This document shows positions 1 to 8,558 of a stretch of 8,558 nucleotides of DNA, piece after piece (positions within the stretch are counted from its first letter, which is position 1; each line of letters opens with the position of its first letter). The translations under genes were made by a program, and so were the position numbers. The DNA is taken from IMG/VR virus record IMGVR_UViG_2690316276_000007; one strand, written 5' to 3'. The stretch is from a virus (lineage: Duplodnaviria; Heunggongvirae; Uroviricota; Caudoviricetes). The notes under the pieces are model-generated. The model searched no databases. It saw only the letters and a list, made by a program, of their open reading frames with translations, and was not told the DNA's origin.

Positions 1-32
1 CTGGTTGTCTGGAGATTCAGGGGGCCAGTCTA
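1..32 (-). mobile_element. IS2 (IS3 family) terminal end, left inverted-repeat terminus only; the element body lies upstream of the window
   Basis: Reverse complement of 1-32 reads TAGACTGGCCCCCTGAATCTCCAGACAACCAG, matching the IS2 left end as I recall it at 31 of 32 positions. The segment is GC-rich against the AT-rich phage DNA that starts at 33. Confidence 0.75.
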
Positions 33-33
33 G

Positions 34-5375
<5,342 letters not shown>

Positions 5376-5388
5376 TAAGGATTAGATA

Positions 5389-5712
5389 ATGAGAGTATTT
5401 AAAGATACGCAGTGTGATGCGTTTCTAAATGCTTTCGGTCAGTCTATCCAAACTTGTACGGGAAGTACTTTTACAGGAATAGTAGAAGTACTTCCCGTTT
5501 CTATTGAGGCGGCAGGTGGATTTATCGAAAGCGTGGAAACATACCTAACAATCAGAAAGGACGATCTAATAACCGCAAACGTGGCAATTGGTACAGTACT
5601 AATCATTGATGGTGTAAACCAGACAATCTATAACATTGAAGATGATCTATCAGGTATGGTTAATTGCTATTTCCGTACTTCTGCTGGTGCTTCATTTGCA
5701 GAGGACTACTAA
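5389..5712 (+). CDS. Head-tail joining / tail attachment protein (lambda gpFII-like)
   Basis: AAGGA 7 nt before the ATG. Pattern GIVEV...GG.IE...L.I..DDL...IG.VL.IDG...IYNIEDD resembles lambda gpFII (GVFDD...RGDTLTIGEENFWVDRVSPDD). Synteny directly after the capsid gene. Confidence 0.55.
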   Translation: MRVFKDTQCDAFLNAFGQSIQTCTGSTFTGIVEVLPVSIEAAGGFIESVETYLTIRKDDLITANVAIGTVLIIDGVNQTIYNIEDDLSGMVNCYFRTSAGASFAEDY

Positions 5713-5713
5713 T

Positions 5714-6106
5714 ATGATGTTAGTACAAAAAGTACGGAATACGATGAAGCAGCTTATCAATGCTACTAAGAATCTGACAGTATCACGTGATGTTGATGTA
5801 TTTGAACAAATTGCTTTTGATTACTCATTAACGAGTTTAAGTTTCAGCAATGAACGCCGGGCAGGTAACTTTGCAATTCAGTATCTGATTTCCCCTAAAC
5901 CAGAATCAGGTAATACAGCCCCATCCATCACTTATGATCAGATTATTAGTACTTTTGATAAAGAGAAAACTTCAGCATTCAGTGATGCAGGTTTAATAAT
6001 GCTTTCGTGTTCTTATGAACAATCCGATATTGTCACAGATCCTATAACTGGCTCGGTTTCCCTATCCTTTACGATAAATATTCAAGTTACGGAAAAGACA
6101 AGATAA
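5714..6106 (+). CDS. Putative tail terminator (weakly lambda gpU-like), 130 aa
   Basis: GAGGA at 5701-5705 lies 8 nt before ATG 5714, 2 nt after the previous stop. Length and weak pattern (R near residue 8, VFE/VFD near residue 30) resemble lambda gpU (131 aa). The ORF-track start at 5636 overlaps the upstream gene and was trimmed. Confidence 0.45.
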   Translation: MMLVQKVRNTMKQLINATKNLTVSRDVDVFEQIAFDYSLTSLSFSNERRAGNFAIQYLISPKPESGNTAPSITYDQIISTFDKEKTSAFSDAGLIMLSCSYEQSDIVTDPITGSVSLSFTINIQVTEKTR

Positions 6107-6123
6107 CTAAAAGGATATAAAGG

Positions 6124-7332
6124 ATGAGTGATATTTTCTCAGGAAGAGAATTATCAGTACAGTATAATGCTGATATTGGTAACAGAACACCACAGGGAGC
6201 AGGCAATGTAGTAATTAAACAGATTAATACTTTTCCAACCTTAACAATAAATTCAGAAGCAAATAATTTTGAAACGTATGATAGTGATTACAGGACAGTA
6301 CTACTATCTGATAAATCAGTAGCACCATTTGATATTGTAGTTAACTACCTACCTGATGATCCTACACATCAATTCTTGGATAATGCCGCTAAGTCTCAGC
6401 AGCTTTTCCAGATCATCATTCAGTACCAGATGAATAAGGATGAAAATACCATTACTTATGCGATGGTGAATGGTTATATCACCTCTTATAAGTTGGACGG
6501 TGATAAAGGTTCAGTAGTAACCAAGGCATACAGTTTTGCCCCACATGATGTGATCGCACGTGCAATGACCATTAACGCACTATCGCCAATCTATCAGGGG
6601 GACTACGGTTTAGGTTCGAACACTACGGATGTACCTCAGTACTCACCATCAGTACCTACGGGTAACAGCTTCATCAAAGTACCATCATCTCAAGCAGGCA
6701 ATCCTGCCGGGGCGGATCTGATGGGAGTAGGGCTTGTAGATGGCACTACTGTAAGTTCTCTTGCGATGACAAAGACGGGTACTCTAAGTATCTATGCAAA
6801 GAACGCTACAACCGCCTGGACACGCATATATACCGCTACACAGATGGACGGGCGATACGTACCCCTTACACGTACCATCAACGGCCATGCACTCACGGCC
6901 AATTTAGTACTGAACAGTGAAGATACAGGTTCAGTACCTGATACACGTACTGTGAATGGTAAGCCTCTAAGTGAGGATGTAGTACTTACCAGTACTGATA
7001 CCGGCTCTGTACCAGATACACGGACAGTTAATGGTCATGTACTCAGTGAAGATATAGTACTGAGTAGTGAAGATACAGGTTCAGTACCTGACACGCGTAC
7101 AGTGAACGGTCATGTACTTAGTGAAAATGTAGTACTGAGTAGTGAAGATACAGGTTCAGTACCTGATACACGTATGGTCAACGGTCATGTACTCAGTGAG
7201 GATGTAGTACTTACCAGTACTGATGTTGGCTTAGGGAAGGTTACAGATGATGCCCAGCTTACGATAGCAGGTAATCTAAGTGATCTGGGGGACGTGGAAG
7301 AAGCACGTATTAACCTTGAAGTGGCACACTGA
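6124..7332 (+). CDS. Major tail tube protein-like (lambda gpV-like N-domain) with C-terminal tandem fibre-like repeats; 3' end interrupted by IS911, which supplies the last codons and the stop
   Basis: AAGGA 8 nt before the ATG. N-terminal ETYDSDY...QLFQIIIQYQ resembles the gpV tube domain (ESYDDSY...ALLAWF). Five 25-aa repeats at 6868-7242. The terminal codons (gaa gtg gca cac tga) lie inside the IS911 left end. Confidence 0.7.
   Translation: MSDIFSGRELSVQYNADIGNRTPQGAGNVVIKQINTFPTLTINSEANNFETYDSDYRTVLLSDKSVAPFDIVVNYLPDDPTHQFLDNAAKSQQLFQIIIQYQMNKDENTITYAMVNGYITSYKLDGDKGSVVTKAYSFAPHDVIARAMTINALSPIYQGDYGLGSNTTDVPQYSPSVPTGNSFIKVPSSQAGNPAGADLMGVGLVDGTTVSSLAMTKTGTLSIYAKNATTAWTRIYTATQMDGRYVPLTRTINGHALTANLVLNSEDTGSVPDTRTVNGKPLSEDVVLTSTDTGSVPDTRTVNGHVLSEDIVLSSEDTGSVPDTRTVNGHVLSENVVLSSEDTGSVPDTRMVNGHVLSEDVVLTSTDVGLGKVTDDAQLTIAGNLSDLGDVEEARINLEVAH
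6868..7242 (+). repeat. Tandem in-frame 75-bp repeats x5 (25-aa units, consensus TRTVNGHVLSEDVVL(S/T)S(E/T)DTGSVPD) inside the tail gene
   Basis: Units start at 6868, 6943, 7018, 7093 and 7168. Protein sequence is conserved with synonymous DNA differences between units; the fifth unit diverges at its 3' end. Confidence 0.9.
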
Positions 7333-7352
7333 ATTTGGCCACCTGAACAGAG
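7317..7352 (+). repeat. IS911 left terminal inverted repeat (IRL, about 36 bp)
   Basis: TGAAGTGG...GGCCACC...AGAG aligns imperfectly with the reverse complement of the right end visible at 8530-8558 (shared GGCCACC core and AGAG). Confidence 0.8.
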
Positions 7353-7388
7353 GTGATATGCTCACCTCAGAACAACACAGGTGCTCCA

Positions 7389-8558
<1,170 letters not shown>

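What the first reader, a model, noticed from the sequence alone, without database searches (positions are those of the whole stretch)
7290..7360. IS911 is inserted inside the tail gene; the IS supplies its last five codons and stop
The tail ORF reads ...NLSDLGDVEEARINL and then E-V-A-H-stop, encoded from the IS911 left end (7317 onward). NLSDL...AR.NL resembles, as far as I recall, a conserved tail-fibre motif that usually continues with GL. The native C-terminus and any downstream tail genes are therefore displaced beyond the IS.
Basis: partly seen in the sequence, partly recalled or inferred. Interest (0 to 1): 0.6.

Follow-up and report, generated by a model that had tools for sequence, protein, structure and literature searches.

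The report
IS911 interrupts a dead prophage's fibre gene
A common Shigella jumping gene (IS911) has landed in the tail-fibre gene of an already crippled prophage in one Shigella sonnei isolate; this is routine IS-driven genome decay, not a new biological system.

Summary
The window is a whole short-read contig of Shigella sonnei (GCA_001254295.1). ORF 6124-7332 has 398 native codons ending ...GNLSDLGDVEEARINL. It then reads E-V-A-H-stop from the left end of IS911, which starts at 7317 and is 99.9% identical to annotated E. coli copies.

Most S. sonnei assemblies carry an intact 883-aa allele. It is identical up to L398 and continues AVYSMDEVD..., ending in a Peptidase_S74 chaperone domain. Their DNA matches the window up to the IS boundary, so IS911 truncates the gene and removes 485 residues.

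- The IS supplies four sense codons plus the stop, and the third base of Leu398.
- The motif natively continues AVYS, not GL.
- The expected 3-bp target duplication is CCT (7314-7316), not CTT.

The right junction lies outside the contig and I could not retrieve it. A simple insertion is therefore inferred, not shown.

The prophage was already defective. IS2 at window 1-32 removes the first 133 residues of the large terminase, and another S. sonnei genome shares that junction. Strain-to-strain IS911 and IS2 variation in S. sonnei is documented (PMC7373316). Interest is low.

One side note: the fibre's N-terminal domain has a tail-tube fold and is a paralogue of the tube gene just downstream.

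The parts
1..32 (-). Terminal 32 nt of an IS2 copy (contig starts inside it); it abuts the truncated terminase gene
   Evidence: matches the end of annotated IS2 in Shigella/E. coli plasmids; the boundary ...GGCCAGTCTA| is fixed by a second IS2 copy in L003; the same junction is present in L003.
34..1533 (+). Large terminase (gpA family) lacking its first 133 residues
   Evidence: GpA_ATPase matches profile positions 109-247 only, plus GpA_nuclease; 87% identity to residues 134-630 of the intact 630-aa Scandinavium homologue.
1545..6106 (+). Head and connector genes of the prophage remnant: gpW-like head-tail joining protein, lambda-family portal, S78 protease-HK97 capsid fusion, head-closure protein, 130-aa protein
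6124..7316 (+). Native 5' part (398 codons, the last lacking its third base) of the tail-fibre gene: tail-tube-fold N-terminal domain plus fibre repeats
   Evidence: 100% identical to residues 1-398 of the intact 883-aa allele. (tube fold).
6905..7219 (+). 75-bp tandem repeat, 4.2 copies, encoding 25-aa fibre repeats (DTGSVPDTRTVNGHVLSEDVVLSSE)
   Evidence: translation.
7314..7316 (.). CCT, the 3 bp directly left of IS911; predicted left copy of the target-site duplication (unverified)
   Evidence: The IS911 copy in L003 has a 3-bp duplication, CAC.
7317..8558 (+). IS911, 1,242 of about 1,249 nt; the contig ends 7 nt before the right terminus
7318..7332 (+). IS-encoded tail of the chimeric ORF: GAA GTG GCA CAC TGA (E V A H stop), inside the left inverted repeat
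7389..7691 (+). IS911 orfA; the A6G -1 frameshift motif lies at 7640-7646
7718..8557 (+). IS911 orfB reading frame (rve integrase domain), in the -1 frame relative to orfA

Best explanation
In one Shigella sonnei isolate, an intact IS911 copy transposed into codon 398 of an 883-codon prophage tail-fibre gene. From established IS911 biology, this occurs by copy-out/paste-in through a circular intermediate, catalysed by the frameshift product OrfAB. The left inverted repeat is open in the fibre frame for four codons and then gives a TGA. The annotated product is therefore a 402-aa chimera, with 398 native residues plus EVAH. It keeps the tube-fold N-terminal domain and the 25-aa repeats. It loses the distal 485 residues, including the C-terminal S74 intramolecular chaperone that related fibres need to trimerise, so a functional fibre is not expected (inference). 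The tube, chaperone, tape-measure and tip genes would lie beyond the IS and be uncoupled from the late operon (inference). The event is probably neutral, because the prophage was already dead: IS2 had removed the first 133 residues of its large terminase. It is one more step in the documented IS-driven decay of Shigella genomes. Shown here: the left junction, the identity of the IS, the intact alleles, and the prior terminase truncation. Inferred: the 3-bp duplication (CCT), the continuation of the gene on the right, and the loss of function.
For: Left junction and chimeric ORF. IS911 identity, with full-length matches starting at 7317. Source genome is S. sonnei, and the window is the whole contig. 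Intact 883-aa alleles are common, and the 402-aa chimera is found on one contig only. DNA of uninterrupted alleles is identical up to the IS boundary. S74 domain at residues 774-822 of the intact allele, and a match to the T5 L-shaped fibre (8hqz). An S. sonnei protein (P0077, 481 aa, on a 2,751-bp contig) is exactly M403-K883. M403 is the first ATG after the insertion point, as expected for the orphaned 3' part. Terminase truncated by IS2, with the junction shared with L003. Another IS911 copy in the same prophage of L003 shows a clean 3-bp duplication (CAC). IS911 and IS2 expansion with strain-to-strain variation in S. sonnei: PMC7373316.
Against: The right junction is not in the window, because the contig stops 7 nt short of the IS end. 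P0077 carries an accession series different from the window's protein, so it is probably from another isolate. L003 has a second, inverted IS911 about 3.3 kb downstream. If this strain also has it, recombination between the two copies could have inverted the intervening segment.
Confidence: 0.86

Rival explanations
1. The junction is an IS911-associated rearrangement rather than a simple insertion. It could be a deletion, or an inversion by recombination with another IS911 copy. In either case the DNA to the right of the IS in this genome would not be the rest of the fibre gene.
For: The right junction was not seen. S. sonnei carries many IS911 copies. L003 has an inverted, 100% identical IS911 3.3 kb downstream in the same prophage. 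L004 shows that IS2 has already joined this prophage to unrelated chromosomal genes (ccm/narP region) in another strain.
Against: The left junction coincides exactly with the IS terminus, as expected for a transposition. An orphan ORF covering exactly M403 to the end exists in S. sonnei. An adjacent deletion made by the resident inverted copy would place the right inverted repeat, not the left one, next to the 5' part of the fibre gene (orientation read). An inversion between the two copies would still presuppose the insertion.
Confidence: 0.11
2. Assembly artefact: the short-read assembler wrongly joined the fibre gene to a collapsed IS911 repeat, and the gene is intact in the real genome.
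For: The window is a short contig bounded by repeats on both sides. IS911 is multi-copy.
Against: The switch from fibre sequence to IS occurs precisely at the terminal TG of IS911, not at an arbitrary internal k-mer. The fibre sequence shares only 2 nt (TG) with the IS at that point, too little for a k-mer mis-join.
Confidence: 0.02
3. The gene ends naturally near this position, and the IS sits just downstream of a complete gene.
For: None beyond the presence of a stop codon.
Against: All full-length homologues continue for about 400-540 residues beyond the aligned position. The stop codon lies inside IS911.
Confidence: 0.01

Closest known systems
IS911 (IS3 family) insertions that create pseudogenes in Shigella genomes (Hawkey et al. 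2020, PMC7373316)
   Same: Same element: 99.9-100% identity, TG terminus, orfA/orfB with an A6G frameshift site. Same host species and same outcome, namely strain-specific gene truncation. IS2 is also present in the same remnant.
   Different: Nothing different in kind. This particular site appears in only one assembly of the protein collection.
Phage tail fibres with a C-terminal S74 intramolecular chaperone (T5 L-shaped fibre pb1, PDB 8hqz; endosialidase-type chaperone, PF13884)
   Same: The intact 883-aa allele has Peptidase_S74 at residues 774-822. Its residues 767-878 match the C-terminus of T5 pb1 with E = 1e-40.
   Different: The window's ORF has lost this domain. The N-terminal anchor is a tail-tube-fold domain, not a pb1-like one.
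Siphophage tail tube proteins with decorating extensions (lambda gpV Ig-like domain, SPP1 gp17.1*, lactococcal tail-tube extensions; from my own knowledge)
   Different: Here the extension is a fibre of about 730 residues with its own chaperone. It is encoded by a separate paralogous gene upstream of the plain tube gene, not made by a frameshift or a small Ig/FN3 add-on. Its place in the virion is unknown.

Membership tests
IS911 (IS3 family) | Near-identity at nucleotide level to reference IS911 over the full element | tested here: met
   99.8-99.9% identity over window 7317-8558 to copies annotated 'IS3-like element IS911 family transposase'; 100% identity to an S. sonnei copy. The last 7 nt lie outside the contig.
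IS911 (IS3 family) | Terminal inverted repeats beginning 5'-TG ... CA-3' | tested here: met
   The left end TGAAGTGGCACAC... is at 7317. The right repeat is present up to ...GTTTTTGTTGAC at 8558. The complete end ...CACTTCA is seen in the identical copy in L003.
IS911 (IS3 family) | orfA and orfB in relative -1 frames with an A AAA AAG slippery site, giving the OrfAB transposase (HTH + rve) | tested here: met
   orfA 7389-7691; AAAAAAG at 7640-7646; orfB frame 7718-8557 lies in the -1 frame. Pfam HTH_Tnp_1 and rve on the called 389-aa product.
IS911 (IS3 family) | 3-bp direct target duplication flanking the element | not testable with these tools
   The right junction is outside the contig. 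Predicted duplication: CCT (7314-7316). The L003 copy shows a 3-bp duplication, CAC.
Tail fibre with S74 intramolecular chaperone | C-terminal Peptidase_S74 (PF13884) domain | tested here: not met
   The window ORF has no S74 hit. The intact allele P0066 has it at residues 774-822 (E = 3e-8). The domain lies beyond the IS, so the intact gene is a member and the truncated product is not.
Tail fibre with S74 intramolecular chaperone | Repetitive fibre shaft and homology to annotated tail-fibre proteins | tested here: met
   25-aa repeats from the 75-bp tandem array. PHROG tail and tail-fibre families match at E = 1e-13 to 1e-15. Homologues are named 'tail fiber domain-containing protein'.
Siphophage tail tube protein (TTP) | Tube-protein fold and sequence similarity to tube proteins | tested here: met
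Siphophage tail tube protein (TTP) | Being the major tube subunit of the phage | tested here: inconclusive
   A plain 157-aa (S. sonnei) or 154-aa (Scandinavium) tube gene lies directly downstream in uninterrupted loci. The fibre-bearing paralogue is therefore probably not the bulk tube subunit, but no virion data exist.

The most novel reading that the evidence does not exclude
The interrupted gene may represent an undescribed way of mounting fibres on a siphophage tail. It would be a separate paralogue of the tube protein whose tube-fold domain joins a tail ring (neck-proximal or interspersed). That paralogue carries a ~730-residue fibre matured by an S74 chaperone. The arrangement is conserved in prophages of S. 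sonnei, Scandinavium, Pluralibacter, Buttiauxella, Phytobacter and Serratia. No close cultured phage was found. The IS911 event itself would stay ordinary.
Probability: 0.3. Interest if true: 0.35.

Novelty: already known. Interest (0 to 1): 0.1.

Why it matters
It matters little beyond annotation. The 402-aa 'hypothetical protein' (WP_252857652.1) should be flagged as an IS911-truncated pseudogene of an 883-aa tail-fibre gene, inside a prophage remnant already inactivated by IS2. The insertion site could serve as a strain or lineage marker in S. sonnei IS typing. The only feature of wider interest is the architecture of the intact gene: a tube-fold anchor joined to a fibre and an S74 chaperone, next to a plain tube gene. 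That architecture is best studied in intact relatives such as the Scandinavium lactucae prophage (L008), not here.

Tried and rejected
- Megablast of the phage part found nothing in 5,426 complete E. coli genomes. In phages and plasmids it found only the IS2 end, so no annotated near-identical record was available there.
- Exact-pattern scans for the predicted right junction (IS911 end + NNN + TGCTGTTTAC...) found nothing in viral and metagenome contigs.
- L002-L007 were not exposed to the Python sandbox, so I made the comparisons with DNA alignment and get_sequence.
- The Pfam hits GldM_2nd and ThiS-like on the fibre have no stretch that passes on its own and fall on the repeats. I rejected them as repeat noise.
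- The PDB label 'putative neck whiskers protein gp24' of phage Sf11 looked like a precedent for a neck fibre. The paper identifies gp24 as the ordinary tail tube protein, so it is no precedent.
- The reading 'major tail protein with decoration' was rejected as a full description, because a separate plain tube gene follows.
- tblastn against cultured phages found no close relative. The best hit to the N-terminal part was 25% identity to a hypothetical protein of Escherichia phage DCP80.

Full report
**What the window is**

The 8,558-nt window is a complete short-read contig, CXBB01000165.1, of assembly GCA_001254295.1. Its proteins are recorded as Shigella sonnei.

Both ends of the contig lie in insertion sequences, where short-read assemblies usually break.
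- Bases 1-32 are the terminus of IS2. They match annotated IS2 ends in Shigella and E. coli plasmids. The boundary ...GGCCAGTCTA| is fixed by a second IS2 copy in L003.
- Bases 7317-8558 are IS911.

Between the two lies the head and proximal-tail module of a lambda-like siphophage (about 33-45% G+C in 400-nt windows). Its genes, are:
- a gpA-family large terminase;
- a gpW-like head-tail joining protein;
- a lambda-family portal;
- a fused S78 protease-HK97 capsid protein;
- a head-closure protein;
- a 130-aa protein;
- the 'tail gene' of the finding, at 6124-7332.

**The observation**

ORF 6124-7332 encodes 402 residues ending ...GNLSDLGDVEEARINL-EVAH-stop.
- Leu398 is CTT at 7315-7317.
- GAA GTG GCA CAC TGA follow at 7318-7332.

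From 7317 the sequence is TGAAGTGGCACACTGAATTTGGCCACC..., the left end of IS911.
- In megablast against complete E. coli genomes, full-length hits start at query base 18, which is window 7317.
- They run to the end of the window at 99.8-99.9% identity and are annotated 'IS3-like element IS911 family transposase'.
- The element looks intact. orfA is 7389-7691, the A AAA AAG slippery site is 7640-7646, and orfB is in the -1 frame to 8557.
- It is 100% identical over 1,242 nt to an IS911 copy in another S. sonnei chromosome.
- That copy shows the window stops 7 nt (CACTTCA) short of the right end.

The IS provides the last base of Leu398, four sense codons and the stop, not five codons plus the stop.

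**Is the gene truly interrupted?**

Yes. The 402-aa product belongs to a 92-member cluster of S. sonnei proteins. Its commonest members are 883-aa 'tail fiber domain-containing proteins' (P0065 on 131 contigs, P0066 on 101 contigs, including complete chromosomes).
- P0066 is identical to the window's protein through L398. It then continues AVYSMDEVDAEVTALADS... for 485 more residues.
- At DNA level, three uninterrupted S. sonnei loci read ...ATTAACCTTGCTGTTTACTCAATGGATGAAG. They are identical to the window through 7318 and diverge exactly where IS911 continues.
- The 2-nt overlap (TG) is a coincidence between the target and the IS terminus.
- More distant intact homologues also run on for hundreds of residues past the aligned position: E. 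coli, Dryocola, Serratia and a 939-aa Scandinavium protein.

That holds for a later copy of the motif (SNLADLNNIVTSRTNLGLG in Scandinavium). It does not hold for this copy, which continues AVYS, or DVYS in homologues.

**What is lost**

The intact allele carries a Peptidase_S74 intramolecular chaperone domain at residues 774-822. Its residues 767-878 match the C-terminus of the T5 L-shaped tail fibre in PDB 8hqz (E = 1e-40).

The truncated product keeps the N-terminal domain and the five 25-aa repeats, which are encoded by a 75-bp tandem array at 6905-7219. It lacks the distal shaft, the tip and the chaperone. From what is known of S74-type fibres, I infer that it cannot form a mature fibre.

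In uninterrupted loci the gene is followed by a 157-aa tube protein (Phage_tail_3), a tail assembly chaperone, tape-measure pieces and a J-like tip protein. In this strain those genes should lie beyond the IS.

**The right junction**

This is the one part I could not verify. The contig ends inside IS911.
- The cluster contains P0077 (CST36004.1, 481 aa, on a 2,751-bp contig), which is exactly M403-K883. M403 is the first ATG after the insertion point.
- By my own reading of the predicted junction, the IS911 right end would place a TGA in frame just upstream. An annotator that calls only complete genes would then start at M403.
- This fits the simple-insertion model.
- Pattern scans of viral and metagenome contigs for the predicted junction found nothing.
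- The IS starts at 7317, so the 3 bp to its left are CCT (7314-7316). The predicted duplication is CCT, not CTT.
- An IS911 copy elsewhere in the same prophage of L003 has a clean 3-bp duplication, CAC.

That L003 copy is inverted and lies about 3.3 kb downstream of the site. If it is present in this strain too, recombination between the two copies could invert the segment between them. Short-read contigs cannot exclude this.

**Context: a prophage already in decay**

- The window's terminase aligns at 87% identity to residues 134-630 of the intact 630-aa Scandinavium homologue. IS2 has therefore removed its first 133 residues.
- The identical IS2/terminase junction is present in S. sonnei L003, so this lesion predates the IS911 event.
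- Other strains show further, different lesions:
  - an extra IS2 with a 5-bp duplication (TTCTG) near the end of the head-closure gene, absent from the window;
  - an IS911 in the tail genes;
  - a TGG-to-TAG nonsense allele of the fibre gene (567 aa), and the same allele with a 162-bp tandem duplication (622 aa);
  - an IS2-mediated join to ccm/narP chromosomal genes (L004).
- The 402-aa chimera was found on this contig only, so the insertion is strain-specific.

This pattern matches published work. IS1, IS2, IS4, IS600 and IS911 have expanded in all Shigella species and create substantial strain-to-strain variation and gene loss (PMC7373316).

**Nature of the 'tail gene' (side result)**

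- Its first ~150 residues match PHROG 158 'major tail protein'.
- They are 31% identical (E = 3e-21) to the 157-aa tube protein encoded directly downstream.
- The gene order head-closure / 130 aa / [tube-fold + fibre + S74] / tube / chaperone / tape measure is kept in an apparently intact prophage of Scandinavium lactucae (L008). Eight other enterobacterial species representatives also carry relatives of the fibre gene.
- No close relative was found among 50,697 cultured phage records.
- The PDB label 'neck whiskers protein' for Sf11 gp24 is misleading, because the paper shows gp24 is the plain tube protein.

The gene is thus a fibre whose anchor is a tube-protein paralogue. Where it sits in the virion is unknown.

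**Verdict**

The finding is an ordinary, strain-specific IS911 insertion that truncates a tail-fibre gene in an already defective S. sonnei prophage.
- Confidence that IS911 truncates the gene: about 0.97.
- Confidence that it is a simple insertion with a CCT duplication and the rest of the gene immediately to the right: about 0.86.
- Novelty: already known in kind.
- Interest: 0.1.

Noticed in passing
window 1-32 and 34-1533: The contig begins with the last 32 nt of IS2, which abuts a gpA-family large terminase lacking its first 133 residues. The same IS2/terminase junction occurs in another S. sonnei chromosome (L003 2560-2599). The prophage was therefore already defective before the IS911 event.
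   Followed up: yes
window 6124-6600; L003 12876-13349: The N-terminal ~150 residues of the fibre protein have a tail-tube fold. They are 31% identical to the plain 157-aa tube protein encoded just downstream in uninterrupted loci, making this a fibre-bearing tube paralogue. The order is conserved in an intact-looking Scandinavium lactucae prophage (L008 8001-10820, then 10877-11341).
   Followed up: partly
window 6905-7219: A 75-bp tandem repeat (4.2 copies, 79% matches) encodes 25-aa repeats DTGSVPDTRTVNGHVLSEDVVLSSE in the fibre shaft. Homologues carry fewer copies.
   Followed up: partly
L003 11867-11869 and 11273-11596: Other S. sonnei strains carry independent lesions in the same fibre gene: a TGG-to-TAG nonsense codon at W568 (567-aa allele), and the same allele with a 162-bp tandem duplication (622-aa allele). 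The S74 part is then called as a separate in-frame 286-aa ORF.
   Followed up: partly
L003 8241-9575 (equivalent to window ~5695-5699) and L003 14495-15743: L003 has an extra IS2 (5-bp duplication TTCTG) near the 3' end of the head-closure gene, absent from the window. It also has an inverted IS911 (3-bp duplication CAC) in the tail genes, 100% identical to the window's copy. In L004 the IS2 joins the prophage to ccm/narP chromosomal genes, indicating an IS-mediated rearrangement.
   Followed up: partly
window 3531-5375: A single 614-aa ORF combines an S78 prohead protease domain (residues 61-153) with an HK97-type major capsid domain (residues 350-608), joined by an acidic linker. Its start overlaps the end of the portal gene by 53 nt.
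   Followed up: no
window 33-7316: This prophage module has no megablast match in 5,426 complete E. coli genomes, in the cultured-phage collection or in plasmids. The closest relatives found were prophages of Scandinavium, Pluralibacter and Buttiauxella (67-73% amino-acid identity over the first 260 residues of the fibre; terminase 87% to Scandinavium). Within the E. coli/Shigella group it looks like an S. sonnei acquisition from another enterobacterial genus.
   Followed up: partly
window 5389-5712 / 5636-6106: The mechanical ORF list gives a 156-aa TTG-started ORF that overlaps the head-closure gene by 77 nt. The assembly's own gene call starts at 5714 (130 aa), and the true start was not resolved.
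   Followed up: no
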